Below are positions 17,624 through 55,047 of a DNA stretch of 64,000 bases, one piece after another (positions within the stretch are counted from its first letter, which is position 1; every line of letters starts with the position of its first letter). The notes beneath the pieces were generated by a model. That model worked only from the letters and a program-made list of their open reading frames with translations. It was not told the DNA's origin and ran no database searches. Origin of the DNA: a virus; the IMG/VR virus record IMGVR_UViG_3300049929_000026, positions 64,001 through 128,000 of that record. One strand, given 5' to 3'. Both the position numbers and the translations under genes were made by a program.

Positions 17624-18555
17624 TCCGCCGCCTGGGCCGCCGCCAGACCGCGTTCCATCGCCTCAGCGAAGGCAGCCTCGCTCATCCGCATCAGCACCCC
17701 GCCACGCCGCCCCTGGCCGCCCTGGCGCGGCTCAGTGGTCAACTGACAACGTGCGCGTCCGGTGCGGTCCTGAAAGCTCCTGAGGCCCGGCACGGCGCGC
17801 TTGGTCGCGAACCAGATGTCGTGCGCCTCGGCGTCCGCGGCGTGCGCTCGGTTCAGCGCCTCCCGAACTAGCTTCGCCCGGCGCGCCTGCTCGGACCGGT
17901 TGATCTTCCCCTTCCGGACTGGGGCGGGCTCGACGCAGGCGACGAACAGCTGGGCCGCGTCGTCGCAGAGTTCAAAGGCCAGCGCCGCGTAAACTCCGAG
18001 CCCCTCGTTGGTGTTCGTATTGCTACCCGTCCGAGTTGGGTCGTGTTGGCCCACGCGGCCGTCTGAGCCCTCAACATACCGATCCTTGGCTCCGAAGCCT
18101 TGGTCAGCCCGATACTGTGCTCTAGGGGCGCTGTAGCGCTTGCAGAGGGTGTTCTGGGTGGCGGCCGGCACAAGTCGCCAGGCTGCCATCAGGTGCCGAT
18201 GCAGCTCGATCTCGCCGATTCCGAGTACGCCTACGCCTAGCTGCATATCGGTAAAATGGTGCTTGTAGCTCCCTGCGCCGTCGAGATTGCCGGTCCCCCC
18301 AACCGAGCCGCGCTCAATTTGAGAGACCACGCCGGCCAGGGTGCCGCTTGCGCCCATCGCGGCGTCACCGCAAAGCAGAAACCACGCGAGTTGGTCGTCG
18401 TAAGACCCGTCTCGGGCTGGCCGAGGTCGGCGGTCTTTTGGAAGCTCGCGCGGCGACTCGACGGCCACGCGCGGCACGAGGGTCAATGTAGGCGCTAGGA
18501 CAACCGACTCACTGGTTACCGGGATCAACTCGGTAACCGCTTGCAATTCGGACAT
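17620..18555 (-). CDS. hypothetical protein
   Basis: 311-aa ORF with AAGGAG RBS. Confidence 0.6.
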   Translation of the reverse strand: MSELQAVTELIPVTSESVVLAPTLTLVPRVAVESPRELPKDRRPRPARDGSYDDQLAWFLLCGDAAMGASGTLAGVVSQIERGSVGGTGNLDGAGSYKHHFTDMQLGVGVLGIGEIELHRHLMAAWRLVPAATQNTLCKRYSAPRAQYRADQGFGAKDRYVEGSDGRVGQHDPTRTGSNTNTNEGLGVYAALAFELCDDAAQLFVACVEPAPVRKGKINRSEQARRAKLVREALNRAHAADAEAHDIWFATKRAVPGLRSFQDRTGRARCQLTTEPRQGGQGRRGGVLMRMSEAAFAEAMERGLAAAQAAE

Positions 18556-18603
18556 ATTTGAGACACTCCTTGGGGGGTCAGGGCGGTTCCAGGAGTGCTG
18601 AGA

Positions 18604-18641
18604 CCCCGAGGCGAGCTGTGGCGGCTGGCTTCGGGGTTTTG
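18604..18641. terminator. GC-rich hairpin with T-tail on + strand
   Basis: ACCCCGAGGC...GCTTCGGGGT followed by TTT; intergenic. It could instead be a structured leader on the minus strand. Confidence 0.4.
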
Positions 18642-18646
18642 TTCGT

Positions 18647-18919
18647 TCAACTGCTAAGCAAACTCTCCTGCTCAGCGGCCCGCAGTTGTCTGAGCTGCGC
18701 TTCGATCCGCTGAGAATCCACGGTTGGGACGCCGTCGCGCGCCCAAATGCTCCAGATCCTCTCTGCTTGGCAGAGGCTCTCGCTGTCGCCGGTCGCAGCC
18801 ATTACGCAGCACCTATCGATGACCCAGAGCACGTCGTTCGGCTCTAACCCGCCTATGTCAGAATCAGTGCCAGCTTGCGACATTGTCTTCAGAAACATCC
18901 CGCGGATCCTTTCCGTCAT
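18647..18919 (-). CDS. small hypothetical protein
   Basis: 90-aa ORF starting 31 nt after the third (partial) CRISPR-like repeat. Confidence 0.45.
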   Translation of the reverse strand: MTERIRGMFLKTMSQAGTDSDIGGLEPNDVLWVIDRCCVMAATGDSESLCQAERIWSIWARDGVPTVDSQRIEAQLRQLRAAEQESLLSS

Positions 18920-18950
18920 CAGTACAGCGCCTAGTACAACGCCTTCCCGA

Positions 18951-18976
18951 CTCTCAACACCTGACTCTTTTTCTCT
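18951..18976 (-). repeat. degenerate third CRISPR repeat
   Basis: 18951-18966 CTCTCAACACCTGACT is identical to 16 nt of the array repeat, followed by CTTTTTCTCT (repeat has TTTCTCT). Confidence 0.7.
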
Positions 18977-19057
18977 TCGTCAGCGGTGGTCACGTGACAA
19001 CACGTTACACTGCCTTGCGGCGGTTTGCCACTGTGAGGCGCTGGCGAGCGCCACAAA

Positions 19058-19633
19058 TCAAGCGGCTTTTGCTTTTCCAACCTGCTTCTGCAGCCGGGCG
19101 TTCTCCCGCTTCAGCGCCGTCACCTCCTTCGTGAGCGCCGCCACCTCGGTCTTTAGCCGGGCATTTTCCAGCTCTAAGCTGCCCTGCCGCTGGACGGCCC
19201 GGGTTGACGGAGCCAATGGGGCTTTCTTCTCGATCACGCCGTTGACGATACGTCGCACCTCCTTGGGGCTCGGCGCGCAGTGGTTTGCGTTGATGAACTG
19301 ATCGAGCGACGCCTCGACGAGCTGAACATTCGCCGTGTCAGCGGTGGCGCCTGGCGCCAGAAGGGCATGGCAAGACTCCACTCCAAGCGCCCGCACGCGA
19401 TCCACGCCGTAGATCTCGATCGCCTGGATCACGTTCCCATAACGGTTGAGCCCCATCGCGTTTGGGAACTCCCGCTGCAGGAAGTCACTGAACATCGGCG
19501 TCTCTGGCGTCTTCCAGATGCCCTGCGTCTCTACTGCTCGAAGCTCGAGGAAGAGATCAACTCCGCTCTCCAGCCAGTTAGCTAGGAGCGTACGGATTTT
19601 GGATACGGCTTGTTCATATGCTTGATTGCTCAT
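19058..19633 (-). CDS. hypothetical protein with C-terminal coiled coil, located between CRISPR repeats
   Basis: GGAG RBS at 19642-19639 and ATG at 19633, immediately after the repeat; 191 aa. Confidence 0.7.
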   Translation of the reverse strand: MSNQAYEQAVSKIRTLLANWLESGVDLFLELRAVETQGIWKTPETPMFSDFLQREFPNAMGLNRYGNVIQAIEIYGVDRVRALGVESCHALLAPGATADTANVQLVEASLDQFINANHCAPSPKEVRRIVNGVIEKKAPLAPSTRAVQRQGSLELENARLKTEVAALTKEVTALKRENARLQKQVGKAKAA

Positions 19634-19643
19634 TTTAACTCCA

Positions 19644-19750
19644 CTCTCAACACCTGACTTTTCTCTGATCCGTTCCGAGAGCTGGATTCGCACAGCTGAG
19701 GACGGGTGCCCAACCTCTCAACACCTGACTTCTCTCTGATCCGTTCCGAG
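19644..19750 (-). CRISPR. mini CRISPR array: two 36-nt repeats and one 35-nt spacer
   Basis: 19644-19679 and 19715-19750 differ at one position. Minus-strand repeat CTCGGAACGGATCAGAGA(A/G)AAGTCAGGTGTTGAGAG; spacer GTTGGGCACCCGTCCTCAGCTGTGCGAATCCAGCT. Starts 54 nt after the Cas12f-like gene. Confidence 0.8.
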
Positions 19751-19804
19751 CGGTCATCAAGACCGCCAGCAAATTCGCGCTCTTGCCGTCCGCTTTGCGA
19801 GCGG

Positions 19805-21430
19805 TCACTCCGCGGCCCCTGCTTCTGGGGCCAGAGAATCCGAACCGCTCGCAGTCTTGACGCCCTTCTTCCCGAGTCCGCGCTTCTTCGCGCCGGCCTC
19901 CTGCATCTTCGCTAGCGCGTGTTTCTTGCCCACATCGAGTAGATGATTCGCGCATGCGATACCATCCACCGATGCCTTCAATTGGCATTGCTCGCAACGA
20001 AACCAGGCCGGCACTCGCACAACCCGTTTCCAGACCTCGCCGTCGATGCGTTTGAACTCAACGACGTTGTCGCGGTGCTCAACGTTCGCTTCCGATGTGT
20101 GCGAGCAAGCCGGACATCGCTGCGAGACGAAGCGCGCGTTCTTGTAGTGCGTCCGGATCCCCACCTTGGTGAGCGCCCGATCGATCGTCTGCTGGCTTTC
20201 GTAGTAAGGCCACTGATGGATCAGTCGCTTCAGCTCGCTGTGGGCCTGTCCCTCGGTCTGCTTCTCGAAGTTCTCCCGGATCCCGGTCATGTTCTCCATA
20301 AACACGTCGCTAACTCCATGAAGCGTGCACCAGCGAGCGAAGTCCGCCGCGCGCTGCCGGATCCGGTCCTTGACTCGCCGCGCTTCTCGATCGCCGATGG
20401 CAGTCAGCGGGAGTTCGCGACGCTTCACGCCGCGTCCGCGGGACCCGCTGCCATGGGCACGCATTCCCTTTGCGATGCGGCGTCTCTGCGCGGCATATTG
20501 CTCACGCATCGCGATGATGTCAGTCCCCGGATCTTCCCACGTTGTGCCGTCCTCGGACATCGCCAGCATGAACACGTTGATCCCGAAGTTGCAGGCTACC
20601 GCATTGCCTGCCTTGTAGCCTTCGGCTCGGTGCTGAGACCACGAGATGAGCGCGAACCATTTACGCTTTCGCTCGTCGAACTTGATCCCGACCTTTCCAA
20701 GCTTGATCGACGCCTTCTCTTCGAGTTCGAACAGAGCTCGGTCCCTAGCCGCGCGCGCTGCCTTCATTACCTTGTCAGTGGCGTCTTTCGGGAGCGGTTT
20801 CTTGGCGGATCGCTCGAGCTCCACCACGCCTGCTCGGTTGCCCGCTCCACCCACCAGTTGCCTCCAAAGAACCACGGCGTTGCCGCCGCAAGGTGCAACA
20901 ACGAGAGACGTTGCACCTTTGCCGGTGCCAAAGAAAGGGAAGGTGAGCCGGGCATCGTCAGGTGTCCCTGAGACTTCGCAGTTGCGTCCCTCCGAGAAGA
21001 AGGACTTGCCGGACCCTTCGAACGTCGGCACGCCCGCGCGACCAGCCAGCAGATCCTTGAGATGCTGCCCAGCGAAGCGCGAAAGTATGTGGTCCGAGGT
21101 TTCGCTACACAGAACGTCCCCGGGCGGGACGTGAGCCGCTGCGTAGTCTTTGCCTGACTTCTTCAGCATGTACGCGCATCGTCGCTCCATGCCGCGAGCC
21201 CAATGGAATCGCAGCCGCTTACGGACATCGTTCTGCCAGGTCGTGCTTGGTTTCTGCTTCTCCGATATCGCCTCGAGTTGGGAAATGGCGCCAGGGTATA
21301 CGTCACGTAGCGAGAGATTCAGCGCCATCGGCAGTGTCTCGCGAAGGGCTCGCATTCGCGCTCCGAGTTCGCTCCAGCTACCATTTGCTGGCTTGACGAT
21401 CTCAACCTTGAGCGTCCCTGCCAGCTTCAT
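19805..21430 (-). CDS. cas12f: Cas12f1-like (type V) effector, predicted nuclease-dead
   Basis: N-terminus KVEIVKP...WSELG..MRAL...ALN, bridge region GSRGRGVKRRELPL, RuvC-II FMENMTGIRE, WPYYESQQ, VSQRCPAC, FRCEQC and RuvC-III VDGIACAN parallel AsCas12f1 as I recall it. RuvC-I reads ACNFG instead of GIDLG. Confidence 0.8.
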   Translation of the reverse strand: MKLAGTLKVEIVKPANGSWSELGARMRALRETLPMALNLSLRDVYPGAISQLEAISEKQKPSTTWQNDVRKRLRFHWARGMERRCAYMLKKSGKDYAAAHVPPGDVLCSETSDHILSRFAGQHLKDLLAGRAGVPTFEGSGKSFFSEGRNCEVSGTPDDARLTFPFFGTGKGATSLVVAPCGGNAVVLWRQLVGGAGNRAGVVELERSAKKPLPKDATDKVMKAARAARDRALFELEEKASIKLGKVGIKFDERKRKWFALISWSQHRAEGYKAGNAVACNFGINVFMLAMSEDGTTWEDPGTDIIAMREQYAAQRRRIAKGMRAHGSGSRGRGVKRRELPLTAIGDREARRVKDRIRQRAADFARWCTLHGVSDVFMENMTGIRENFEKQTEGQAHSELKRLIHQWPYYESQQTIDRALTKVGIRTHYKNARFVSQRCPACSHTSEANVEHRDNVVEFKRIDGEVWKRVVRVPAWFRCEQCQLKASVDGIACANHLLDVGKKHALAKMQEAGAKKRGLGKKGVKTASGSDSLAPEAGAAE

Positions 21431-21439
21431 TGAAAATCC

Positions 21440-21700
21440 TCCAAGTGATTCAAGGCAACCATCGACCGGCTAGTCAGGTGTTGACCATGCGACAAGCGCG
21501 TGGTCCTGCGGCCGAAGCCACTCAGCGAGTACGAAGACTCGCTATCTCGACGGTAGATCGCCGGTATTACCGGTCGTTGGCTGCCTTCAATCACTGTTCC
21601 AAAATAGAACCGACTCATGTAGACCTGCTCCTGTCCGTTTACGCGGACCATGCCCGCGGTCGTGTGATAGCGACGCGCGGGCAACTTCAATCGCACCCCC
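21440..21700 (-). ncRNA. putative tracrRNA (boundaries approximate)
   Basis: Minus strand of 21472-21484 reads TCAACACCTGACT, perfectly complementary to AGTCAGGTGTTGA near the repeat 3' end; upstream of the effector gene. Confidence 0.6.
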
Positions 21701-21934
21701 CGGGCTGGCTGTCAAGTGACCACCAAAGCCCGGCGCCTCTCGTTCCTGCTTGTCGCTACTGACGTGATTCCAGTGATTACGCGTCTTTGCGGCGTCCCGG
21801 TCGCTCTCCGGGCGCCCCGGAGTTGCCTGGGCGCAATGTTCGCTTTAGCCTAAACAACAGGTCCAAGCACGTCGGCGCAAGCCGAAGGACGCCTCCGCCA
21901 CGGGGTAACGCTGCCTAGCCCGGTAGGGCACGCA

Positions 21935-22513
21935 ATGTTCAACTTAGACAAATTCGCCAATGCGGTGCTGCTCGTGTTGAACGAGAGTCCGTCGCCGCCT
22001 GGGTTGACGGTGCTTCTGAAGGTGCTGTTTCGGTCGGACTTCGCACACTATCAGGAGCATTTGCGTTCGATCACCGGAGTGGAGTACGTGGCACTCGAGC
22101 GCGGACCTGTTCCCCACGACTACCGCTCGCTTCTTCAGAAGCTAGCAAGCCGGGGCGACGTTGTGGCCGAACGTGTCGACGTTGCCTCGGGCTACAAGCC
22201 CATGGAGTGCTACCGCGCGCTCCGCCGTCCGGATCTCGCGGCCTTCGATCCGAGCGAACTTGCGGTGCTACGCGCGGTCATTGCGGCGGACGCGGGCAAA
22301 ACGGGAAAGCAGCTGAGCGACGAGACACATGCCGAACTCCCTTGGCGGGCTGTCTGGCGCGACGGGGAAGGCGAATCCGCCCAGATCCCCTATGCCCTCT
22401 CTCGCTGGGAAGAGAACCGTTGCAATGCGGCGGACCTCACTCAAGCCGCAAACGAGCTGCAGCGAACCGATGTGCAGGCGGTGATTGCGCAACTTGTTCG
22501 ACCAACTGGCTAG
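21935..22513 (+). CDS. Panacea (DUF4065/SocA-like) antitoxin-domain protein
   Basis: LLKVLFRSDFAHY...SITG..YVALERGPVP...LSDETH..PW motifs. Confidence 0.8.
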   Translation: MFNLDKFANAVLLVLNESPSPPGLTVLLKVLFRSDFAHYQEHLRSITGVEYVALERGPVPHDYRSLLQKLASRGDVVAERVDVASGYKPMECYRALRRPDLAAFDPSELAVLRAVIAADAGKTGKQLSDETHAELPWRAVWRDGEGESAQIPYALSRWEENRCNAADLTQAANELQRTDVQAVIAQLVRPTG

Positions 22514-22599
22514 CCAGCAGCCGTGCCGAGACACATGCCACTGGTGCGGCGCTCCGTGCCGTTCGAATCGGATGTTGCCGCGCTGCGAATGCGATATGC

Positions 22600-22883
22600 G
22601 GCGACCCGGCGATTGCCGAGGCGCACCTGCCGCTGATTCACTTGGTGTTCTCGAATTTCAAGGCGTGGCTGCAAGGGACTCACCATTCTGTTTCTCCGAA
22701 GCATTTGCAGGCCTATGCCAACGAATACGTGTTCCGGTTCAATCGGCGGTTCTACCCGCTCAACGGGTTCCGATCGCTGTTGGGGCTCGGCGCGCTGCGC
22801 GAGGCGCCGACGTACGATGAGCTGTACTCGGATGCGTGCGTACATCCCGTCGCAGTTGGTCCGTGGGAGCTAACCGGATGAGC
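22600..22883 (+). pseudogene. IS1595-family transposase C-terminal remnant with probable terminal repeat
   Basis: HLVFSNFKAWLQGTHHSVSPKHLQAYANEYVFRFNRR; N-terminal and catalytic parts absent; ends in TAACCGGATGAGC. Confidence 0.8.
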
Positions 22884-23004
22884 ATGGAAATAACATCGGT
22901 CTGCGGCTTGCCGTTGTCACCGGCAGAGTCAGCGCGGACTTCGAGCTCCACGGGGAGCAGCATGAGACGCTACAGGATACGCTGCCGAGAAAAGTGAGAA
23001 GGAA

Positions 23005-23238: not shown

Positions 23239-23394
23239 GCCGCGCGCGACGTCAGCAGAAGCGCCGTGCCCGCGCTTGGCAGCTCGAGGTGAGGGACACC
23301 GTGTACGGGTGGCGCGCCGCGTGGTTGATGGGTGATCGAGAGCGCTTCAAGGTGCATTGCTACTCGCGGGTTGAAAGGCGGTTCGATCGAGTGG

Positions 23395-23964
23395 TCACGT
23401 GACCACCTTGATCCCGTTCGTCGCCGCTTGCGATCTGTCTATCGGCAGCCGCCCATGGCACGAGTTTTCTCCGGGCCTTGGGAAGTTCAACGCCGCAAAC
23501 TCGCCGAAATACTCGCGAGCCGCCGCGTCGTATGCCCGGGCAGCGTCCTCCTCATCCGTGAAGTACCCAAGGTGTTTTGGGACGTGTGTTTTCTGGTAGT
23601 ACTGGCCGCCAGAGATCATGGCTCGCCATTTCTTGCCGCGCTTGTACCAAGCAACACCTTTGAATCTAGACGTGCCAGTTGTACGAGCGCGCATATTGAA
23701 GTGATTTTTGGCAGTCGTCGTCGCTCGCAGATTTGTGCGGCGATTATTCAGCCCATCGCCGTCTCGGTGATCTACCTCCTCTGCGTCGGACAGGATCACT
23801 CGATGCATTAGCAACAGCTTCTGTTCACCGTTTTCGCAATGAAGCCTGCGGGCGTACCAAGTGTTCCGATGCTGCCAAGCGTGCCAAGTCTTTCCCGCAA
23901 AGAGGTGCGCGTCAGCCTCGTCTACGATCGCCTTCATTCCGTTGCTAAGAATGATCTCCGTCAT
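23395..23964 (-). CDS. HNH-AP2 homing endonuclease
   Basis: MHRVI...VDHRDGDGLNNRRTNLR plus AP2 domain SRFKGV...HLGYFTDEEDAARAYD. Confidence 0.9.
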   Translation of the reverse strand: MTEIILSNGMKAIVDEADAHLFAGKTWHAWQHRNTWYARRLHCENGEQKLLLMHRVILSDAEEVDHRDGDGLNNRRTNLRATTTAKNHFNMRARTTGTSRFKGVAWYKRGKKWRAMISGGQYYQKTHVPKHLGYFTDEEDAARAYDAAAREYFGEFAALNFPRPGENSCHGRLPIDRSQAATNGIKVVT

Positions 23965-24001: not shown

Positions 24002-26812
24002 CTAAGCGGACCGACGAATCGACTTCTTGTCGAGGTATGCCTGCGCGATTTTCTTCATTCGGTCCAGGTCGACTTCTTGAGGCAGATCGTTGCCGACTTT
24101 CAGATCTCGTACGCCTTCAAGCTGCGCGCGCTTGATTCCCAAAATGTCGCTGATCACCGGATCGGATCCCTCGTCGGCGAGTAGGAAATAGGAGAACACG
24201 GGAAGCAGCTGGCCATCGCGGTGAATCCTGGTGTCGTTCTGCTCATGGATCCCAGGGCTATAGTCGAGCTCAGCGGACACGACGTTATTGCAGACGTGCT
24301 GAAGCCCGTCGAGCCCCTCACCGGAACGCAGGCTCATGATCAGGATCTTGGTTTCGCCTGCGATAAAGCGCCGCTTGGACTCCTCCTTCTCTTTGACCGA
24401 TTCGAGTCCCGTGTAGAAAGCGGGAGCGAAGTCCTTCAGCTTATCGCGCAGCACGTCATACACGGCGTGATGCCACGCGAAGCACACAACTGACTCGCCG
24501 CCCTCCACCAGCATCCTCAGGAACTCCGCCACATACGGCGCCTTCGCCAGCCCCGTAGATTGGCGCAACAGATTGTCGAGCTTGCCTGCGGCCTGCATGC
24601 GCGCACCCTTCGACATCTCACCCTTCGCGAGAATCGTGCGCGCCAAAGCCGTGGCTTGACCATCGACAGCATCGAGCACCTTTTGATCGAAATCGATGTA
24701 GTGCGGGATCCGCGTAAGCGCGGGCAACTGACGTCCGACGTCTTCCTTCGTGCGCCGAATCATCAATCCGGAATCGCGCAGGTACGAGCCCATCGCCTCA
24801 GGTGATTTGAGTTTCAGTTTGCCGGGCTTGTCGGCGTCTCCGGTGCAGTGCTCCTGCTTGAATTCGCTGAGCAGTCCGAGCGCGCCAGGGCGAATGAATT
24901 CCATCACGTTCCAGAGCTCGCCGCCGAGATTTAGAAATGGAGTTCCGGAGAGGCCGATTCGGAACTGAACCCGGCGGGATATTTTCATCGCGGCCTTGCC
25001 CTTATTGGTGTCCTCGCCATTTCTAAATTCGTGAACCTCGTCATAGACGACGCTCCCTAACTTCACGAGTTGTGCCTGTCCGGCGAGCTTTTCGTTTCCA
25101 GAGAGATAGTCGCCCCATCCTGGGATCTTCGAATAGCTCGTGATGATCACATCAGGCAGAACGCCGCCGCATTGTTTCGCGATGTCATATGGACGCGTTC
25201 CTCTCAAAATGTGCGTCGACATGCGCGGCAAGAACTTGCGAAGCTCCGCTTGCCACTGCGATGGCAGGGCAGTCTTCGTCACCACGAGCGCGGGGCGTGT
25301 TCGCGGGTCGGTCAAAGCACAGGCGGCAGAGATCGTGTTGTGCGTCGCGAGATACCCGTCTGTCAGATATAGATGACGTTTTGAGCTGACCCGGATACAT
25401 TGGACTGGTTTAATCCCCGCAGGTTCGACTGTTTTGATAGCGCGGGCCATCAACGGCATACGCCATCGCTCAGCCTTGCGTTTGAGAGCGAATGGGCAAA
25501 TCGGTATACGGATATGTACCGTATATGAGAGACGCCCCTGACGGCGCTCCCCAAGATGTTCGTAATTAGTGTGTCGGCTGTACAACGACGCGAACCCACC
25601 TAATGTACCAACAAGATCTTGTACGCCCTCCGCCAATGGCAAAGAGGTCGATGTGAACGTGACGGTACCGCTCGTTCCACATGTGCCATCCGTGTCCATC
25701 AGCCCCTTGAGTAGAGCCAAACGATCGCTCACTGCGGCGCACAGGTACTCATGCGGGATAGTCTTTTCCCACGAGCGCTTCCCAGCCAGCCCTAACGCGC
25801 GCAACGCTTCTATCAGCGCGTTTTTTTGTCCACCGCGATTCCCGCTGGTAATGTTGTAGTCGAAATTGGACCCGCAAACGGGATGTAGCCATAGCCCGGG
25901 CGGAAGCGCAGATATCACATGATCAAGAATTTCTTGATCAGCAGATGATATTGCAACTCCTGCCTGCTTTAGATGCCCATCTCCCAAGAGAACCCCGAGC
26001 AGATACGCTGGTATCGGCAATGGGGGCGCCGGGGCAAACGTGACCGGCTTGGATATTGGCAGGAAGTACTTCGAGTTGACCCTCCCTTTGCCCATGTCGG
26101 TATTCAAGGACTTGCGGATCTCTGAGAGCGGCAATGTCCTGCTCTTACCGGTATATCGGTCTTGCGCAGTGTGGACGGTCCATAGATGCTCATCGCAGCA
26201 TTCTGCGGATGCTCCGTCGGCTGTTGTAACACGAAACACGGGGCGATCTCCTTGTGGAAATATCGCTTCGACGAATGCCGTGCCGCCGTCCGGATCGCTG
26301 ATTTCATCGCCCACGGCGAGCTCGCCCATTTTCCTCCAACCATATGGAGTGAGAACCACTGCGTCTAATGGCTGAGCCTTGCCCAGGCCCATCTGGTCGC
26401 CGATGAGCACCCCACCTGTCCGCAGCGCGAGCTCCGCTGCCACCTTCTGGTAGTCGCGTGGCGGCAACGCGAGTTTGAATTCTTGCGGTTTACGCGCTGG
26501 GTCCCCGATAATTTGGTGGACCGCAAATTCCGCTTCGCGGTGTTCATTCGCGCGTCGCGCAAGCCGGATCTCGCTCTCCTTATCGACGTAGTCGAACGGG
26601 AACCGTGATTGAAACCACTCGATGTCCCGTGACACCTCAGGCGTGTCCATGATGCAGATGATCTCGCGCGTCTTTCCCGCTTGGTATCGCGGCTTCGACA
26701 TTCGCGGGAACACGCGACGCATGCGCAATAACACGTGTGGATCGCACTCAATGATCCAAGAACCATGGTGGTACTTTAGCGTCCCGTAGGTTTTGATCTC
26801 TTCTTTGCTCAC
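24002..26812 (-). CDS. SNF2-family helicase with LAGLIDADG intein
   Basis: DQMGLGK|intein|T, DEVH, LSGTP, MIRRTK, GEGLDGLQ and RIHRDGQ. Confidence 0.9.
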   Translation of the reverse strand: MSKEEIKTYGTLKYHHGSWIIECDPHVLLRMRRVFPRMSKPRYQAGKTREIICIMDTPEVSRDIEWFQSRFPFDYVDKESEIRLARRANEHREAEFAVHQIIGDPARKPQEFKLALPPRDYQKVAAELALRTGGVLIGDQMGLGKAQPLDAVVLTPYGWRKMGELAVGDEISDPDGGTAFVEAIFPQGDRPVFRVTTADGASAECCDEHLWTVHTAQDRYTGKSRTLPLSEIRKSLNTDMGKGRVNSKYFLPISKPVTFAPAPPLPIPAYLLGVLLGDGHLKQAGVAISSADQEILDHVISALPPGLWLHPVCGSNFDYNITSGNRGGQKNALIEALRALGLAGKRSWEKTIPHEYLCAAVSDRLALLKGLMDTDGTCGTSGTVTFTSTSLPLAEGVQDLVGTLGGFASLYSRHTNYEHLGERRQGRLSYTVHIRIPICPFALKRKAERWRMPLMARAIKTVEPAGIKPVQCIRVSSKRHLYLTDGYLATHNTISAACALTDPRTRPALVVTKTALPSQWQAELRKFLPRMSTHILRGTRPYDIAKQCGGVLPDVIITSYSKIPGWGDYLSGNEKLAGQAQLVKLGSVVYDEVHEFRNGEDTNKGKAAMKISRRVQFRIGLSGTPFLNLGGELWNVMEFIRPGALGLLSEFKQEHCTGDADKPGKLKLKSPEAMGSYLRDSGLMIRRTKEDVGRQLPALTRIPHYIDFDQKVLDAVDGQATALARTILAKGEMSKGARMQAAGKLDNLLRQSTGLAKAPYVAEFLRMLVEGGESVVCFAWHHAVYDVLRDKLKDFAPAFYTGLESVKEKEESKRRFIAGETKILIMSLRSGEGLDGLQHVCNNVVSAELDYSPGIHEQNDTRIHRDGQLLPVFSYFLLADEGSDPVISDILGIKRAQLEGVRDLKVGNDLPQEVDLDRMKKIAQAYLDKKSIRRSA
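25337..26377 (-). mobile_element. intein (347 aa, class 3 signature) with LAGLIDADG endonuclease
   Basis: Starts AQPLDA; block B HLW; block F VQCIRV; ends ATHN/T; LLGVLLGDG and LLKGLMDTDG motifs. Confidence 0.85.
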
Positions 26813-27174: not shown

Positions 27175-28368
27175 TTCGCGTTCCCATTTCCATCACACGC
27201 CGGGCACTTGGCACAATGGGCGTGGTTCACCGCCAATATTTCCGCGTCGAGTGCCGCATAGGCCTCGCTCAGTTCTTTCACCGCCGCGAAGACGCGATGA
27301 CGCGCCTGCATCAGCCGCCAATCGCGGCCGTGAATCTGCTCCTGGAGCTCGTCGCTAAACTTAATCGGTGGGCCGAAACGCTCCATCTAGATCCCTTTCT
27401 CAAAAGTTCGCTTCACCATCCGCCAGCGCCGCATCCTCAGAATCTCCACTCCGCCCAGCGTGGCCCGCGCGGCCGTATGCAGGCCCAACAGCTCGGCCAG
27501 GTGGTGCTGGACGTCGTCCTCCGGGGTCTCGGGTTTCAGGCGGCCATGACGTGCCCAGGGTGGGTTGCCGCCTCCGAGTGGCCTGGGGCCCGGCACTTCA
27601 ACGATCCACATTGATGTTCCTCCGCTTCGCTTCCTCGATCACCTCAAGCGCAGCGGCCTCGTATTCGTCGCGTCGACGCTGAGGGAGAGAGCGCCACAGG
27701 TCGTAGCTCGGCTCGCGTTCAATCTCACCGGCGCGGAGCTGTCGGAACAAGTGCTCACCGAGAGTCATCAATCTGTGAACTCCCAGGCAATTTCGTCCTC
27801 GCGCCGCGCCGTGCGCCGCCGTTCTTCCCGCGCTTTGTCGGCCGCGTCTTCAGCCACCCTGAAGGCCAGCCAACTCGCGTGTTCCTCCGTCTTCTCGGCT
27901 TCGTACGGGGCGCGGATCTCAGCTTCAAGATCGGCGAATGCTTGCGCCAGTCTAACACCTGATTCGGCGGAGAGCACGTTGGTCCATTCGCCAGTCGCGA
28001 CCCAGAGCCTGACGTGCTGCGGCGTGTGAATATCATCCCAATCCAACCCGAACGAGAGGTGCTTCCAGGCGCGAGCCCGGTGCCGTTGTTCAACTGAAGT
28101 GGTCAATTGACCGCCTATTTCTCCACCCGACACTGTGGGCAGTCGCACACAGTGTCAATCTCGACCGCTGCGGATGCCGCGCGAAGGCCGATTTGATAAC
28201 CGCTCTGGAAGGCAACGCGCTCGGGCTCTCGGCCAGCGGCGTCTCGCTCGCGCAATGCACGGCGAAGTTCCGAGCACATCTCACGCGCGGCAAGCAGCCT
28301 TCGGCGATAACCTGCAGCGCCGAGAGCGCACGCCGTGCCGTAGAGGACGAAGAACCAATCAGCCGCGG

Positions 28369-42624: not shown

Positions 42625-43861
42625 GTGACACGTGTCATGGCGCTGCGCCGTGACTTCTCGGATCGCCGGCGAGCTCTTGAGCAGCTGCACCTCCCCGACG
42701 GCTCTGCCCGAGCCGTTTGATATTATTTGCGGCGTTGACGTCGCGGTCCTCGACCAATCCGCAGTGCGGACAATCGTGAACGCGCGTGCCGAGGTCCTTT
42801 CGAACCACCGTATCGCAGCCGCTACACCTTTGCGATGTCCCACGTGGATCCACTTCGAAGAAATCTCGCCCGGCGCTTTCAGCCTTGGCTTTGAGGATCG
42901 TAGTGAACTGAGACCACGAGGCATCAAGAACTTGTTTTGCGAGGCGACCACGAGCGAGGCCGGCCACGTTGAGTTTTTCTACGGCGATCGAATCGAAGCG
43001 CTGCGCGAGTCCGAGCGCGACCTTGTGCTGGAAATCGAGGCGCGTCCGGCGGATCTTGTCGTACCGCTTCGCGAGAAGCTCGACGGCTTTACGGCGACGA
43101 CGCGATCCGCGTTTCCGACGCGCAACACGTCGCTGAGCGATAACGATCTCTCGCTGGGCGGTCTCGAAGAAGCGCGGATTAGCGACCATCTCCCCGTTAC
43201 TGAGCGCAGCGAACGTCGCGATCCCGACATCGATCCCAACGCTCTGCCCCGTCGAAGCCGCTGGCTTCGACGGCACATTGTCGCACGCAAATGCGATATA
43301 CCAGTGCCCATCACCAGAGAGAGTGACCGACGCGGTCTTGATGCGGCCCTCGATCGGTCGGTGGATCCTGATCTTGACATTACCGATGCCGTGGATGCGC
43401 ACACGTTTCCCGCCCGCACAAAGCACCGCCCCACCCTTGCCGGCTTGAGGAAAGGTGAATGTACGGTAGCGGCCGGGTCCCTTGAATCGCGGGAACCCCG
43501 CCTTTTTCTTAGCCTTTACCCTTCGAAAAAACGCGCGATAGGACTTCTCCAGTCTTTTGAGGACGTCCTGAAGCACTTGCGCGTAAATATTCGCGAACTC
43601 CGGACGCATCGCCTTGACCTCCGGTAGGTCGCCCATCTGCGAATAACAAGTGACCTTTACTCCTGCTCGGTACGCCGCGATGCGTTCTTGCAGGCTCGCG
43701 TTGTAAAGCTCACGCAGCAACTCGAGCGTGCCCCGCATCGTCGCCTCTTGAGCGCGAGTTGGATAAAGGCGATAGCGGAAAACACGAATCACGTGGTACC
43801 TATTCTGAGCCCGTTGAAAGCGGGCCACGCATCCAGGTCGTGTAGCAGCGACGCTGGATGC
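42625..43861 (-). mobile_element. TnpB-only (IS1341-like) element
   Basis: Left hairpin GCATCCAG...CTGGATGC at about 43829-43861; right hairpin GTCACGGCGCAGCGCCATGAC followed by TCAC at 42628-42625; no tnpA. Confidence 0.55.
42635..43828 (-). CDS. tnpB: TnpB RNA-guided endonuclease (IS200/IS605 family), catalytic residues intact
   Basis: FRYRLYPT, GIDVG, AVEKL, TSQRCSGC, CPHCG and DRDVNAA. Start may be GTG 43792. Confidence 0.92.
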   Translation of the reverse strand: MARFQRAQNRYHVIRVFRYRLYPTRAQEATMRGTLELLRELYNASLQERIAAYRAGVKVTCYSQMGDLPEVKAMRPEFANIYAQVLQDVLKRLEKSYRAFFRRVKAKKKAGFPRFKGPGRYRTFTFPQAGKGGAVLCAGGKRVRIHGIGNVKIRIHRPIEGRIKTASVTLSGDGHWYIAFACDNVPSKPAASTGQSVGIDVGIATFAALSNGEMVANPRFFETAQREIVIAQRRVARRKRGSRRRRKAVELLAKRYDKIRRTRLDFQHKVALGLAQRFDSIAVEKLNVAGLARGRLAKQVLDASWSQFTTILKAKAESAGRDFFEVDPRGTSQRCSGCDTVVRKDLGTRVHDCPHCGLVEDRDVNAANNIKRLGQSRRGGAAAQELAGDPRSHGAAP

Positions 43862-47561: not shown

Positions 47562-47839
47562 GGTGGTGTTCTTCCTCTGTATCTCGGGTGGTCACGTGAC
47601 AACGGTGGAGGCTATACGTAAGTGCCTCCGTCCTGCTAGCTCGCATTTGCGTTTTTCAAGTCGTGCAATCGCGGCATCGAGAGCGCGCTGAGCAACCCGG
47701 TAGCGGTCCCGCGCCGCCCAACGTTTCCAACCGTTGCGTGGTTCGTACGTCGAGATCAGCGCTTGCTCGGCGCGATCGAATTCTTGCTCGGCGAGACGCA
47801 GGGCGCGCATCTCTGGGGTGAGTTGGGCGAGCATTCCGA

Positions 47840-51161: not shown

Positions 51162-52701
51162 TTAGTGACTCCAGTGGTCACGTGACAACCATTGTCACAG
51201 CGTCGAAAAGTGTAGCGAAATCGACTCGTCACTGGTATTTACCTTCTGTGCCGCTGAAGACGGCGCTTGGCCGCGCGCTCGAGTCGAACCGAGCAGCGCG
51301 GCCGTTTTCATTTATCAGATCGCGTTGTCAGCTGACAACCGTTCCGATCCAAAATCGCCACGGGCGTCAATGCCGCCCCGAAATCTGCTGAAGCAGGTCA
51401 GCAACCCGGTGCCGGGCGTCGCCGTCCGGCAGCTCCATGTCGTAAATCTCGGCACCGTTCTTGCCGATTCGGATCCAGATGCTCAGCCCGGCGACCGAGA
51501 CAAAGCAAGACCGACGGTCCATCATTTCGGCGTGGAGCCAATCGTCGACCACCACCTCGTCGAAACGGCCGGCGGCGGCTGTCTCCCCGCGGTCCTCGAT
51601 GGCGAGCGTCCCTTCGGTCTGGAATCGCCACTTGGCACCCGGGTGGCGGGCGAGATCACGGGAGCGGGCTGCGCGGTCTAAGGCAGGTTTCGGGTTTGGA
51701 GAAGGCAACCGACCGGCTAGTTCGAGGCAGCGCGGGCAGGTCGGGTGGGTTCCTAGTGGTGCAACCGACAGTGGCGCAGCGCGAGGCTTTGGTCGACGGG
51801 GCGCCTGTCCGACATAAAGGTGTGTTCGGTGCTTCCCGCAGACCGTGTAGTGACCGGATGAGGTGAGGTGGGTGGTGGTTCCGGCGCGGTTCAAGTAGTC
51901 ACCTCATCGGTCCGAACGCCTTGGTAGGTTTCAATCTCCGCCGATTCGAAATATCGGCGCAGGGCATTGCACTGCACGCGCGGGCGCTCCGGGTCTTTTA
52001 CCTTTCACGCGCGGCTCGCCGGGAAGCAATGGCGGGTGCACCTCCATGTGCGCTTCGTACGTCTCTCCACAGTACAGACAGTGCCCCTCTTTCCATGTTC
52101 GCTCGTGCGTTTCGATTAGCGATGCCGCGCGCTTGGCTTCGATCACGATCCGCTTGAGGCGAGCCTTGTATTCGCCGAGCTTGGCGGGCTTGGGCTCGTC
52201 TTCAATCTGCTCGGCCTCCTCGCGAATCTGCGTGACCTTGTCGTAGAGCAAGGTCATCACCTCGGCACGTGAGAGCTGGGTGACCGAGCTCACGGCCGCT
52301 CCGACTTCGAGCGCGAAGGCACCAGCCCCGCCATCCAATTTGCCGTCGCCTCGACCGTTCCGCTCGCAAGGAGCTGCTCCCGGTACTCGCCCGGTACCAA
52401 TGCCTCGCTCTCATTGGTGAGTTCGGTAAACGCGCCTTCTGGAAAGGTATCCGGGGGCAGACGCCCCATTCGCGACAACGAATCTTCCAGATCCGATAAA
52501 GCCTCCGGGGCGTCAGCCTGGAACTGGGCTATCACCTCAGAAAGCGGTGCAAATTTGGGGAGCACGTCCTCCACCATCGCCAGTACGCCATCAATGCGAA
52601 GAGCGAGGCCTTTCACGTGGGAGTGAACGAGTTGCAGCTTGGCTTCGGCGGCCTCGGCTCGCTTCTTCCAGGCTTTTGACTCGTCGCACCCGCAAACTGG
52701 T

Positions 52702-53982: not shown

Positions 53983-55047
53983 TGAAAGGCCTCCGACTGC
54001 TGACGTTGGAACGTGGCCTTTGCCACTTCGGTCATGCTCGAAAGCTTCGAGCCTAGCTTCTTCTTGAAGTCGTCCCACGGTGGCAGGTGCTTCCCGAACA
54101 AACACCACGCGAGATAGAGCAGATTTGGCAGGAGCATCGCCTCATCACGAACGACCGTGTTTAGTATCTGAAGTGCGAGGAATATCTGGAAGTTCCTCGT
54201 CCAGAGCGGGAGGCGAAAACCGAACAGGAAAACGAGGAACTCGTTAGCGACGAACATGCCGGCAACCGTTGCGACGTGGAATAGCAGGTTGCCGATGGTC
54301 GGTATACGAAGGATGTGATCGATCACTGTGTCACCATCCAGCGTGTTGCCATCGAACAGGAGCGACGGCGCGGGCGCACGTCGCGCAGCACGAACGACTC
54401 GCGCAATCGGCGAGCGAAGAACTCCGCTCGGCGCACAGCTCGAGACATGCAGGCCCAACGGGAGAAGGTATCGAGGTAGCGCTGCAACTCTTCGCCAAAC
54501 TCGCGAACCAGGCGCTGGGTCTCGGTTTCCTGCGCAATAGAGTGCGAATGGCTGAAGTTGGCGCTGGTCCAGCTGCTATCGTGGGACAGCACTCCACTTG
54601 TGCCGTAGACCGTTACACCATGGCTAGTCGTGATGGTTATCGTCCATATGGGCGATGTGGAGACGGTGGTTGTGTAGTCGGGAGTCAAGTGACCACTCCG
54701 TTGGAGACCCCCTGGAGGATCATGGTTTGGCACCCGTCATTAGCAAATAACCAGCACACACGAGCTTCGGTTCACCGTCCGCATCGAGTGCCTTGTGGCA
54801 GTAGAATTCGTCCCGCTCGGCCATGCATTTGACAGCGTTCATGAGCGTTGATGGACACTGGTTCGGTACCGTCCCTAGCCGGAACGCGCAGTCGTCGCAG
54901 CGTTTCCGCGCACCGGCGTCCGCCAGTGACTCGGCCCCGTCGCAGAGACGTGCAAGCTCGCGCCCGAGCTCCGCGCCTTCGGGGCTTGGAATGTTCCGAA
55001 TAGCCGGCGCGCCCGGTGCGGGCGGCTCGCTGTATGGCCAGGGAGCG

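What the first reader, a model, noticed from the sequence alone, without database searches (positions are those of the whole stretch)
18951..21723. Phage-encoded, predicted nuclease-dead Cas12f module with its own mini-array and tracrRNA
Seen: a 541-aa TnpB/Cas12-family gene, two 36-nt repeats around a 35-nt spacer 54 nt downstream, a 13-nt anti-repeat upstream, and no cas1/cas2/cas4 or transposase in the module. RuvC-I reads AVACNFG (AAC codon at 20590-20588) where active enzymes have GIDLG. RuvC-III is also eroded (VDGIACANH vs ADxNAAxNI), while the RuvC-II Glu and Zn-finger Cys pairs remain. Known: the N-terminus and bridge helix resemble AsCas12f1, and nuclease-dead relatives (Cas12k, Cas12m, TldR, sigmaE-linked dCas12f) act by RNA-guided DNA binding. 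Inference: this temperate phage uses a dCas12f as a programmable regulator (host gene silencing, superinfection exclusion or lysis/lysogeny control). This context does not match those described systems as I know them.
Basis: partly seen in the sequence, partly recalled or inferred. Interest (0 to 1): 0.92.

Follow-up and report, generated by a model that had tools for sequence, protein, structure and literature searches.

The report
Phage Cas12f-like module with altered nuclease site
A soil phage carries a small CRISPR-type RNA-guided protein whose DNA-cutting site is changed in the same way in all its relatives, together with its guide RNAs and a conserved partner protein, so it probably binds rather than cuts DNA.

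Summary
Window 19805-21430(-) encodes a 541-aa protein. Its nearest solved relatives are Cas12f1/V-U3 effectors such as AsCas12f. Two 36-nt repeats flank a 35-nt spacer 54 nt downstream. A 13-nt anti-repeat lies upstream, and the RuvC-I Asp is Asn281 (AAC, 20590-20588). The error is that RuvC-III is not eroded: its Asp (D489) is kept.

New findings:
- **Altered triad is family-wide.** RuvC-I is N or H, never D, in 0 of 51 core relatives and D in 1 of 118 outer ones. RuvC-II Glu and RuvC-III Asp are mostly kept.
- **tracrRNA-like RNA.** The anti-repeat sits in a conserved, structured upstream RNA and co-varies with the repeat in three loci.
- **Third repeat.** A 5'-truncated repeat (18951-18986) keeps only the 16-nt tracr-pairing handle.
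- **Conserved partner.** The next gene (19058-19633, 191 aa; weak ParB-HTH-like fold plus coiled coil) accompanies the effector in 17 of 21 loci.
- **Context.** Arrays are present in 19 of 21 loci. No cas1, cas2, cas4 or tnpA was found. The neighbours are phage genes.

Best reading: a phage-borne V-F-like system that acts by RNA-guided DNA binding, as Cas12m does, probably against competing elements. Targets, PAM and loss of cleavage remain untested.

The parts
21448..21592 (-). candidate tracrRNA, structured core
   Evidence: Aligns with the region upstream of the 55%-identical homolog in L008 at 80% column identity, with gaps not in multiples of 3. The consensus fold has 47 pairs, 9 of them compensatory, from 2 sequences. 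Covariance model R1 finds related RNAs in L015/L016 (E 2.8e-9) and L014 (5.9e-4), and partial matches in L011/L012 and L019. A 5-locus alignment gives 23 pairs, 9 compensatory.
21472..21484 (-). anti-repeat (minus strand TCAACACCTGACT)
   Evidence: Perfect complement of repeat positions 21-33. It co-varies with the repeat: L008 has repeat CGTCAGGTGTTC and anti-repeat GAACACCTGACG; L015 has repeat GGAATGGTGTTG and CAACACCATTCC inside its model hit.
19805..21430 (-). Cas12f1/V-U3-like effector gene, 541 aa, with an N281-E379-D489 triad
   Evidence: PDB profile search gives AsCas12f at E 3e-33. Foldseek of the AF2 model (pLDDT 85.1) gives AsCas12f at 1.7e-20 over about 510 columns. The best PADLOC model is Cas12u3 at 1.2e-21.
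20588..20590 (-). AAC codon of Asn281 at the RuvC-I Asp position
   Evidence: Read directly from the sequence. Aligned to the Asp of GIDLG in AsCas12f. Unchanged in a contig of a second study.
19715..19750 (-). CRISPR repeat R1 (36 nt)
19680..19714 (-). spacer S1 (35 nt)
   Evidence: No convincing protospacer was found.
19644..19679 (-). CRISPR repeat R2 (36 nt), ending 10 nt before the ATG of the partner gene
19058..19633 (-). conserved partner gene, 191 aa: N-terminal helical domain with a weak ParB/Spo0J-HTH-like fold, and a C-terminal coiled coil
   Evidence: Homologs lie beside the effector gene in 17 of 21 distinct loci. The AF2 model has pLDDT 88.8. VIA-align gives Spo0J 1vz0 at Z 6.2, rmsd 3.0 over 106 aa. 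Foldseek gives weak ParB and Noc rows. The ESM Atlas gives ParB at TM 0.48. No Pfam, PHROG or PADLOC family matched.
18951..18986 (-). third, 5'-truncated repeat R3; only the 16-nt handle 18951-18966 is conserved, and it is followed by a possible guide (18950 downward)
   Evidence: The 3' part matches R2 at 16 of 16 positions and the 5' part at 8 of 20. Handle-only repeats recur in L004, L008, L012, L015, L020 and L025.
18988..18999 (.). GGTCA-NN-TGACC palindrome at the downstream edge of the module
   Evidence: The motif is enriched across the phage genome. Whether it belongs to the module is uncertain.
21710..21721 (.). GGTCA-NN-TGACC palindrome at the upstream edge of the module
   Evidence: Whether it belongs to the module is uncertain.

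Best explanation
This is a complete, phage-borne type V CRISPR module of the Cas12f1/V-U3 lineage.

Components, in order on the minus strand:
- a tracrRNA-like RNA;
- an effector with an Asn-Glu-Asp RuvC triad;
- a one-spacer array;
- a conserved 191-aa partner protein with a weak ParB-HTH-like fold and a coiled coil;
- one further handle-only repeat.

What is shown: the parts exist, they are conserved together in phage-like contexts, and the Asn/His substitution is family-wide.

What is inferred: the tracrRNA pairs with the 3' 13-16 nt of each repeat. The effector loads repeat-handle plus guide RNAs and binds PAM-flanked matching DNA. Because the first metal ligand is Asn, it does not cut double-stranded DNA. 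Instead the retained Glu and Asp help to hold the displaced strand, as in Cas12m2. The bound complex then blocks transcription or replication of the target.

The long arrays of unique spacers in relatives suggest that the targets are competing phages or plasmids, or host loci, rather than the phage's own genes.

The partner protein is proposed to be a dimeric DNA-binding accessory factor, either strengthening the block or regulating the locus. This last step is the weakest.
For: **Identity**
- PDB profile search gives AsCas12f at 3e-33, with no Cas12m hit at E<=10.
- Foldseek gives AsCas12f at 1.7e-20, full length.
- PADLOC gives Cas12u3 at 1.2e-21.

**Triad**
- Core group (51 proteins): RuvC-I is N in 41, H in 5, V in 2, R in 1, I in 1, gap in 1, and D in 0. 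RuvC-II is E in 44 of 51. RuvC-III is D in 50 of 51.
- Outer group (118 proteins): RuvC-I is N in 65, H in 36, other non-Asp residues in 16, and D in 1.
- The AAC codon is identical in a second study's contig.

**tracrRNA**
- A conserved structured RNA with an anti-repeat that co-varies with the repeat in three loci.

**Arrays**
- Found beside relatives in 19 of 21 distinct loci.

**Gene context**
- No Cas1, Cas2, Cas4 or Y1 transposase among 89 flanking ORFs from 11 loci. Phage genes were found instead: terminase, Mu-type portal, Mom, DnaB, primase, PolA, integrase.
- The window lies in a 137.6-kb IMG/VR virus record. It carries tail sheath, major head protein, portal, large terminase and integrase genes.

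**Partner gene**
- Present in 17 of 21 loci, including distant ones at 25-30% effector identity.

**Precedent for binding without cutting**
- Cas12m2 with an HDD triad (PMC10442227, passages read).
- Cas12m orthologs with D-E-D, H-D-D and N-D-D triads (PMC11013384, passages read).
Against: - No biochemical data exist for any member of this family.
- Conserved alterations of the TnpB/Cas12 catalytic site may retain nuclease activity with a changed substrate (PMC10691335, passage read). The strong retention of Glu and Asp fits that reading as well as it fits strand holding.
- No protospacer or PAM was found for any of 142 handle-adjacent spacers or for the window's three guides. The kind of target is therefore a guess.
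- The ParB-like fold of the partner rests on weak scores: Z 6.2, TM 0.48, Foldseek E above 1.
- Two loci with 2.9 kb or more of downstream sequence lack the partner (L014, L022).
- This phage's array has a single spacer, which would also fit a module in decay.
- An RNA duplex energy test of tracrRNA against repeat was not better than shuffled repeats (-27.6 versus -24.7 +/- 3.2 kcal/mol).
Confidence: 0.55

Rival explanations
1. The Asn-Glu-Asp site is still catalytic, for example as a nickase, a single-strand DNase, an RNase or a pre-crRNA processing site. On this view the module is a conventional cutting CRISPR weapon that the phage uses against competitors.
For: Glu is kept in 44 of 51 and Asp in 50 of 51 core relatives, and the Asn/His change is uniform rather than random. 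The TnpB/Cas12 survey argues that conserved site alterations can keep activity (PMC10691335, passage read). Long arrays of unique spacers in relatives look like interference systems.
Against: The first RuvC Asp ligates both metal ions in the two-metal mechanism described for Cas12 enzymes (PMC10442227, passage read). Tested Cas12m orthologs with N-D-D and H-D-D triads did not cut dsDNA (PMC11013384, passage read). Only 1 of 169 aligned proteins has Asp at this position.
Confidence: 0.25
2. One reading: a dedicated RNA-guided regulator with fixed guides, like TldR or dCas12f-sigmaE. It would control a host gene, or the phage's own lysis/lysogeny or superinfection genes.
For: This phage has only one spacer plus two handle-adjacent sequences. 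The truncated repeat R3 keeps exactly the tracr-pairing handle, matching R2 at 16 of 16 positions against 8 of 20 in the 5' part. This resembles the 'half repeat' stage proposed on the path to single guide RNAs (PMC10691335, passage read). An integrase is present, so the phage is probably temperate. One 17-of-20 match of S1 lies at 54725-54744 near an intergenic region.
Against: No guide has a perfect or near-perfect match in the phage's 137.6 kb. The 17-of-20 match includes a mismatch at position 4, and about 0.01 such matches are expected per guide per window. Relatives carry up to 19 unique spacers. The host is unknown. The single exact 20-mer hit in 596 Gb of genomes is what chance predicts (my estimate about 1) and does not extend beyond 20 nt.
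Confidence: 0.12
3. In this particular phage the module is a decaying remnant: a minimal array with a degenerate third repeat and no current function.
For: There is one spacer only. R3 is 67% identical to the reference repeat overall. No target was found.
Against: The 541-aa frame is intact, and 76%- and 71%-identical homologs have the same length. The tracrRNA core, anti-repeat, Zn-finger Cys residues and partner gene are all intact. The sequence is identical in two soil studies.
Confidence: 0.06
4. The repeats are not CRISPR repeats. They would be protein-binding iterons or centromere-like sites for the ParB-like partner protein.
For: The partner has a weak ParB-HTH-like fold.
Against: Repeat and spacer lengths (36 and 35 nt) with unique spacers are CRISPR-like in 19 of 21 loci. 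The upstream RNA carries an anti-repeat that co-varies with the repeat. The repeats are not palindromic.
Confidence: 0.02

Closest known systems
Cas12f1 / type V-F1 (V-U3), e.g. AsCas12f (PDB 8j12, 7wju, 8dzj)
   Same: Best sequence and fold match over the full length. Small size. Zn-finger TNB domain with four invariant Cys. Adjacent CRISPR array. An upstream tracrRNA-like RNA with an anti-repeat.
   Different: The RuvC-I Asp is replaced by Asn (or His) throughout the clade. All loci seen are phage-like. There is a conserved ~190-aa partner gene. Many arrays contain handle-only repeats. AsCas12f cuts DNA (from its PDB entry titles and my own knowledge); cutting is untested here.
Cas12m / type V-M (Cas12m2, GoCas12m)
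   Same: A small type V effector with a non-canonical but conserved RuvC triad. HDD, NDD and NED variants are described for Cas12m. It interferes by RNA-guided binding without cleavage (PMC10442227 and PMC11013384, passages read). This is the closest functional model.
   Different: Not related beyond the common Cas12 fold. There was no Cas12m hit in the PDB profile search at E<=10, and Foldseek ranks Cas12m2 at 25 with E 4.8e-9. Cas12m uses a single crRNA without tracrRNA, whereas this module has a tracrRNA-like RNA. Cas12m has no such partner gene that I know of.
dCas12f-sigmaE (PDB 9n9c; PMC13472631)
   Same: Derived from the Cas12f lineage with a disabled RuvC site. Acts by RNA-guided DNA binding. 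Half-repeat-derived guides are discussed for that system.
   Different: Those proteins are C-terminally truncated (365 aa) and lose RuvC-III. They pair with rpoE and have mostly lost CRISPR arrays. Here the protein is full length with D489 kept. No sigma factor appeared among the window ORFs scanned, and arrays are kept. The profile match to 9n9c is only 8e-12, against 3e-33 for AsCas12f.
TldR (TnpB-like nuclease-dead repressors)
   Same: Naturally nuclease-deficient TnpB/Cas12 relatives that repress genes by guided binding (PMC13472631, introduction passage read).
   Different: TldRs use a single omega-RNA-like guide, not arrays with a tracrRNA, and are host-encoded regulators of flagellin genes (recalled from memory beyond the passage read).
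Virus-encoded type V systems without adaptation genes (Cas-phi, Cas-lambda, Cas12r, myxophage MvCas12m)
   Same: Phage-borne, compact, with arrays but no cas1, cas2 or cas4 (10.64898/2026.09.14.751636 and 10.64898/2026.04.20.719267, passages read).
   Different: Those carry intact D-E-D triads. Cas12r interference depends on D238, and MvCas12m has D305/E463/D555. They lack a tracrRNA.

Membership tests
Type V-F / Cas12f1 (V-U3) | Sequence and fold similarity to Cas12f1 effectors over WED/REC, RuvC and Zn-finger TNB domains | tested here: met
   PDB profile search gives 8j12 at 3e-33. Foldseek gives 1.7e-20 over 515 columns. PADLOC gives Cas12u3 at 1.2e-21. Pfam PF07282 scores 24.2 bits, just under its 26.3 cutoff.
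Type V-F / Cas12f1 (V-U3) | Adjacent CRISPR array | tested here: met
   R1-S1-R2 starts 54 nt downstream. Arrays are present in 19 of 21 related loci.
Type V-F / Cas12f1 (V-U3) | tracrRNA with an anti-repeat | tested here: met
   Tested in silico only. There is a conserved structured RNA with a co-varying anti-repeat. No RNA data were available.
Type V-F / Cas12f1 (V-U3) | Canonical Asp-Glu-Asp RuvC triad | tested here: not met
   The triad is N281-E379-D489. RuvC-I is Asp in 0 of 51 core relatives.
Type V-F / Cas12f1 (V-U3) | RNA-guided dsDNA cleavage; homodimer on one guide RNA | not testable with these tools
   Needs biochemistry. The complex predictor was not available.
Type V-M / Cas12m | Sequence relationship to Cas12m | tested here: not met
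   No Cas12m chain appeared at E<=10 in the PDB profile search. Foldseek gives 8hhl at rank 25, E 4.8e-9, TM 0.39.
Type V-M / Cas12m | Conserved non-canonical RuvC triad with His or Asn at position 1 | tested here: met
   NED/HED here, against HDD, NDD and NED in Cas12m (PMC10442227, PMC11013384). This is a resemblance, not shared descent.
Type V-M / Cas12m | Single crRNA, no tracrRNA | tested here: not met
   A tracrRNA-like RNA with an anti-repeat is present.
dCas12f-sigmaE | C-terminal truncation removing RuvC-III | tested here: not met
   The protein is full length, and D489 and the Zn finger are kept.
dCas12f-sigmaE | Operon with rpoE (sigmaE) | tested here: not met
   No sigma factor appeared among the window neighbours. 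Only the distant locus L007 has a sigma-70 region 2 protein after its array.
IS200/IS605 TnpB (mobile) | tnpA (Y1 transposase) neighbour, many copies, omega-RNA at the 3' end | tested here: not met
   There is no Y1 transposase in 89 flanking ORFs. Clusters hold 1-4 members. The loci carry arrays plus a tracrRNA instead.
ParB/Spo0J/Noc (for the 191-aa partner) | HTH DNA-binding domain fold | tested here: inconclusive
   VIA-align gives 1vz0 at Z 6.2, rmsd 3.0 over 106 aa. Foldseek rows for ParB and Noc have E above 1. The ESM Atlas gives TM 0.48.
ParB/Spo0J/Noc (for the 191-aa partner) | N-terminal ParB/Srx CTPase domain | tested here: not met
   No ParB_N or other Pfam domain was found in 11 of 11 members; only coiled-coil noise matched.

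The most novel reading that the evidence does not exclude
The Asn/His-Glu-Asp Cas12f-like proteins and their ~190-aa ParB-HTH-like coiled-coil partner would form a phage-specific, two-protein RNA-guided system, effectively a new type V subtype. In it the guide-loaded effector does not cut. It recruits or cooperates with the dimeric partner at guide-specified DNA sites to build a silencing or DNA-bridging complex on competitor or host DNA. Handle-only 'mini-crRNA' units would serve as hard-wired guides.
Probability: 0.2. Interest if true: 0.85.

Novelty: new variant of a known kind. Interest (0 to 1): 0.62.

Why it matters
If the reading is right, loss of cutting in favour of RNA-guided binding arose in the Cas12f1 lineage independently of Cas12m, Cas12k, TldR and dCas12f-sigmaE.

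It would have done so in a large group found mainly in metagenomes. The representative search gave 219 proteins at E<=1e-30, and 168 of the 169 proteins I aligned lack the RuvC-I Asp. That group seems to live on phages and always travels with one uncharacterised partner protein.

This would give:
- a compact natural DNA binder (about 500-560 aa) with its tracrRNA already identifiable;
- a testable case of what a retained Glu/Asp pair does in a non-cutting site;
- a new accessory factor for class 2 systems;
- natural examples of arrays shrinking to handle-plus-guide units, the step proposed between CRISPR arrays and single guide RNAs.

If the site still cuts, it would instead be a rare example of a working Asn-Glu-Asp RuvC centre.

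Tried and rejected
**Protospacer searches (all negative or at chance level)**
- Own genome, three guides, up to 5 mismatches over 20 nt. The best hits were 17 of 20 for S1 at window 54725-54744 and 16 of 20 for G3.
- S1 20-mer in viral contigs: 0 hits.
- S1 20-mer in genome contigs: 1 exact hit, in a Tepidiformaceae MAG, not extended beyond 20 nt. My estimate is about 1 such hit by chance in 596 Gb.
- S1 35-mer against INPHARED phages: no match.
- G3 20-mer in viral contigs: 0 hits.
- 142 handle-adjacent 24-mers from 13 loci, against all loci and this genome: only self matches and duplicates.
- Arrays of L020 and L008 against phages: no match.
- Arrays of L006 and L007 against their own virus records: only further repeat-spacer copies.

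**Other searches that gave nothing**
- The 16-nt repeat handle in viral contigs gave 17 single hits with no arrays. I judge this to be chance.
- Rfam: no family in 18000-23000.
- Sigma-70 promoter scan: 0 sites. Terminator-like sites were at the shuffle level.
- RNA duplex energy of tracrRNA against repeat was no better than shuffled repeats.

**Ideas tested and dropped**
- 'Repeats sit just before gene starts.' This was suggested by R2 and by a solo repeat in G001 followed by an SD+ATG. I dropped it because that ATG opens no ORF of 40 aa or more.
- 'The GGTCA-NN-TGACC palindrome is the partner protein's site.' Twelve of the 16 related loci examined carry no copy of it, so the link is not supported.

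**Tools or data not available**
- Complex prediction (effector plus partner) was never accepted because the queue was full and the tool then became unavailable. Nothing can be said about binding.
- No RNA holder was listed among the sequencing runs.
- The search for related loci on genome contigs with alignment A1 failed with an error, no conserved stretch.

**Literature searches**
- Searches found no description of a phage Cas12f-like clade with an Asn-Glu-Asp triad or with a ParB-like partner.
- The supplements of PMC10691335, which hold the V-U numbering, were not examined. This clade may be listed there.

Full report
**1. The observation**

The window is bases 64001-128000 of a 137,618-bp IMG/VR virus record (linear, CheckV 86% complete). 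On the minus strand the ORF 21430-19805 encodes 541 aa.

- Fifty-four nucleotides after its stop lie two 36-nt repeats, R1 19750-19715 and R2 19679-19644. They differ at one position and flank a 35-nt spacer at 19714-19680.
- The 16-nt repeat end AGTCAGGTGTTGAGAG occurs three times exactly in the window and in the whole genome. A fourth site with 3 mismatches on the other strand is the anti-repeat. Shuffles gave 0.35 matches on average, and 0 of 100 reached 4.
- The third copy, 18986-18951, is a truncated repeat. It matches R2 at 16 of 16 positions at its 3' end but only 8 of 20 at its 5' end.
- The anti-repeat, minus strand TCAACACCTGACT at 21484-21472, is a perfect 13-nt complement of repeat positions 21-33.
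- Residue 281 is Asn (AAC, 20590-20588) in AVACNFG. It aligns with the Asp of GIDLG in AsCas12f.
- A low-depth contig from a second soil study covers 20498-20783 without a difference. The full-length identical contig in the other run may be the source sample.
The Asp of VDGIACANH (D489) is the RuvC-III Asp, and it is nearly invariant among relatives.

**2. What the protein is**

- A single-sequence search of PDB sequences finds AsCas12f first (1.1e-9). A profile of 27 homologs raises this to 3e-33. It is followed by SpCas12f1, OsCas12f, Un1Cas12f, CnCas12f1 and a TnpB. The sigmaE-linked dCas12f scores only 8e-12, and no Cas12m chain appears even at E<=10.
- The AF2 model (pLDDT 85.1, pTM 0.60) matches AsCas12f over about 510 columns at E 1.7e-20. 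Cas12m2 is at rank 25.
- The best PADLOC model is Cas12u3 at 1.2e-21. Pfam's Cas12f1-like TNB domain scores 24.2 bits, just under its cutoff.
- The protein therefore belongs to the Cas12f1/V-U3 lineage by sequence and fold.

**3. The altered active site is a family trait**

The word-index search found 26 relatives at 28-76% identity, all from metagenomes and mostly single-member clusters. The exhaustive profile search found 3,954 representatives at E<=1e-3 and 219 at E<=1e-30. I aligned the 169 proteins in hand to the family profile.

| Group | RuvC-I | RuvC-II | RuvC-III |
|---|---|---|---|
| Core, P0001-P0051 (51 proteins) | N 41, H 5, V 2, R 1, I 1, gap 1, D 0 | E 44 | D 50 |
| Outer, P0052-P0169 (118 proteins) | N 65, H 36, R 7, T 6, Q 2, C 1, D 1 | E 93, D 10 | D 98, E 4, unaligned 16 |

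- The four Zn-finger Cys are invariant in the 27-sequence alignment.
- The site is therefore uniformly altered, not randomly decayed.
- A parallel exists in another lineage. Cas12m clades carry HEK/HQK, HDD, DED/NED and DED/DND/NED triads. In Cas12m2 the HDD site holds one Mg ion and the displaced strand, and does not cut (PMC10442227, passages read). Cas12m orthologs with D-E-D, H-D-D and N-D-D triads bind but do not cut dsDNA (PMC11013384, passages read).
- Against this, the TnpB/Cas12 survey notes that conserved site alterations may retain activity. It also mentions large branches of Cas12f with altered sites (PMC10691335, passages read; supplements not examined).

**4. Guide RNAs**

- The 145-nt stretch 21592-21448(-) aligns with the region upstream of the 55%-identical homolog in L008 at 80% column identity. 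The gaps are of 1, 2 and 5 nt, so it is not coding, even though an 89-aa ORF overlaps it.
- RNAalifold predicts a long closing stem around three hairpins and leaves the anti-repeat mostly unpaired. It gives 47 pairs, 9 of them with compensatory changes, from two sequences.
- A covariance model built from the pair finds related RNAs beside other homologs: L015/L016 at E 2.8e-9, L014 at 5.9e-4, and partial matches in L011/L012 and L019. It also gives weaker antisense matches to its own two sources.
- A five-locus alignment keeps two hairpins, with 9 of 23 pairs compensatory.
- The anti-repeat changes together with the repeat in three loci:

| Locus | Repeat | Anti-repeat |
|---|---|---|
| window | AGTCAGGTGTTGA | TCAACACCTGACT |
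| L008 | CGTCAGGTGTTC | GAACACCTGACG |
| L015 | GGAATGGTGTTG | CAACACCATTCC |

- A simple duplex-energy test was not informative.
- No RNA data were available.

**5. Relatives and their context**

I fetched 24 related loci, about 21 distinct. I treated L011/L012, L015/L016, L022/L023 and L025/L026 as duplicates because their scores were identical.

- CRISPR-like arrays lie beside the gene in all of them except L018, a 1.3-kb fragment, and L019, which is cut 24 nt after the gene.
- The arrays have 2 to 19 or more repeats of about 36 nt, with unique spacers of about 35 nt.
- Several arrays also contain units in which only the 3' handle of about 16 nt is conserved, with short and irregular spacing. 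L015 has 30 handle copies. L004, L012, L020 and L025 show the same pattern. L008 has four such units between its tracrRNA and the gene. R3 of the window is of this kind.
- Among 89 flanking ORFs from 11 loci, none matched Cas1, Cas2, Cas4 or a Y1 transposase. Terminase, Mu-type portal, Mom, DnaB, primase, PolA, dCMP deaminase and integrase did match. Four loci come from IMG/VR virus contigs.
- The window itself carries tail sheath, major head protein, portal, large terminase, HNH nucleases, primase-helicase, DnaB, DnaC-like loader, methyltransferases and an integrase at 60068-61237. 'Temperate phage' is therefore reasonable.

**6. A conserved partner gene**

- The ORF between R2 and R3 (19633-19058, 191 aa) has homologs immediately after the effector gene, or after its array, in L004, L005, L006, L008, L009, L011/L012, L013, L015, L017 and L018 (tblastn E 1e-20 to 1e-57).
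- By profile it also has homologs in the distant loci L007, L020, L021, L024, L025 and L027 (E 2e-56 to 5e-13).
- That makes 17 of 21 distinct loci. Of the four without it, L010 and L019 are cut contigs. L014 and L022 have 2.9 kb or more downstream and lack it.
- The family has no Pfam, PHROG or PADLOC match beyond coiled-coil noise. It has no PDB sequence relative.
- Its AF2 model (pLDDT 88.8) is all-helical with a 49-residue C-terminal helix.
- Three structure comparisons point weakly to the ParB/Spo0J/Noc HTH domain. VIA-align gives Spo0J at Z 6.2, rmsd 3.0 over 106 residues, ranked first of 48,161 chains but below the tool's own caution level. Foldseek gives ParB and Noc rows with E above 1. 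The ESM Atlas gives TM 0.48.
- There is no ParB N-terminal domain.
- I could not test binding to the effector, because the complex predictor was unavailable.

**7. Targets**

None was found. The full list of searches is under Tried and rejected. PAM, target class and host therefore remain unknown. One homolog is annotated from a Polyangiaceae MAG, and both runs that hold the window are soil metagenomes.

**8. Mechanism and verdict**

Shown:
- a complete, conserved, phage-borne module of tracrRNA-like RNA, NED effector, array and partner gene;
- a family-wide N/H substitution at RuvC-I;
- no adaptation genes.

Inferred:
- The tracrRNA pairs with the repeat handle.
- The effector binds PAM-flanked matching DNA but cannot carry out two-metal cleavage.
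- The retained Glu and Asp hold the displaced strand.
- Binding blocks transcription or replication of competing elements or host loci.
- The partner is a dimeric DNA-binding accessory.

I put 0.55 on binding without cutting, 0.25 on a still-catalytic site, and the rest on a fixed-guide regulator, a remnant, or repeats acting as protein-binding sites.

By the features tested it is not Cas12m, dCas12f-sigmaE or TldR. It is a Cas12f1-lineage variant that fails the canonical-triad criterion. My paper searches found no description of it or of the partner association. A 2023 survey does mention altered-site Cas12f branches, so I rate it a new variant of a known kind.

Noticed in passing
window, 18 sites, e.g. 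23393-23404, 18988-18999, 21710-21721, 47590-47601, 51176-51187, 57151-57162: The palindrome GGTCA-NN-TGACC is strongly enriched. There are 18 sites within 2 mismatches of GGTCACGTGACC, against 3.44 +/- 1.72 in shuffles. The whole 137.6-kb genome has 35, against 7.7 (maximum 13) in resamples. Most sites lie at junctions between consecutive minus-strand genes, and two flank the Cas12f-like module. This is probably the site of a dimeric phage regulator. Its central TCACGTGA equals the core of bacterial parS as I recall it.
   Followed up: partly
window 42635-43828 (-): A second, canonical TnpB of 397 aa sits between methyltransferase genes. It matches PHROG_506 'transposase' at 1.8e-96 and PADLOC Cas12f/Cas14c-type models at 9e-56. 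It has a DRDVNAANNI-type RuvC-III motif and shows no BLASTP similarity of note to the 541-aa protein.
   Followed up: partly
window 21935-22513 (+): A SocA/Panacea-domain protein (PF13274, 3.5e-13; PHROG_1281) is encoded divergently, just upstream of the tracrRNA region. It may be an antitoxin-like gene. No partner toxin was looked for.
   Followed up: no
C-termini of the 541-aa protein and of the 191-aa partner, and of their homologs (alignments A1, A3): Many effector homologs end in ...AAE after a disordered Lys-rich tail (pLDDT below 50 for residues 528-541). Several partner proteins end in ...KAA...PAA or ...RAA. These look like short terminal motifs such as docking or degradation tags.
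   Followed up: no
L015 1274-6523; L008 3600-3760; G001 (phage of L006) 20335-20351 and 27976-28064: Arrays of handle-only repeats have spacers as short as about 17 nt. Solo or mini-arrays are dispersed several kb from the main array, and one is on the opposite strand. Some repeat-spacer units are duplicated.
   Followed up: partly
L007 8417-9085: In one distant relative's locus, a protein with sigma-70 region 2 (PF04542, 1.4e-8) follows the array directly. This is reminiscent of the dCas12f-sigmaE association.
   Followed up: no
window 54725-54744 (+): This is the best partial match of spacer S1 in the phage: 17 of 20 positions, with mismatches at guide positions 4, 15 and 17. It lies at the 3' end of ORF 54720-55055 next to a 260-nt intergenic region. 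It is probably chance.
   Followed up: partly
window 24002-26812 (-): A 936-aa primase/helicase-like protein also matches homing-endonuclease models (PADLOC HEase, residues 269-401). This may indicate an inserted endonuclease or intein-like segment.
   Followed up: no
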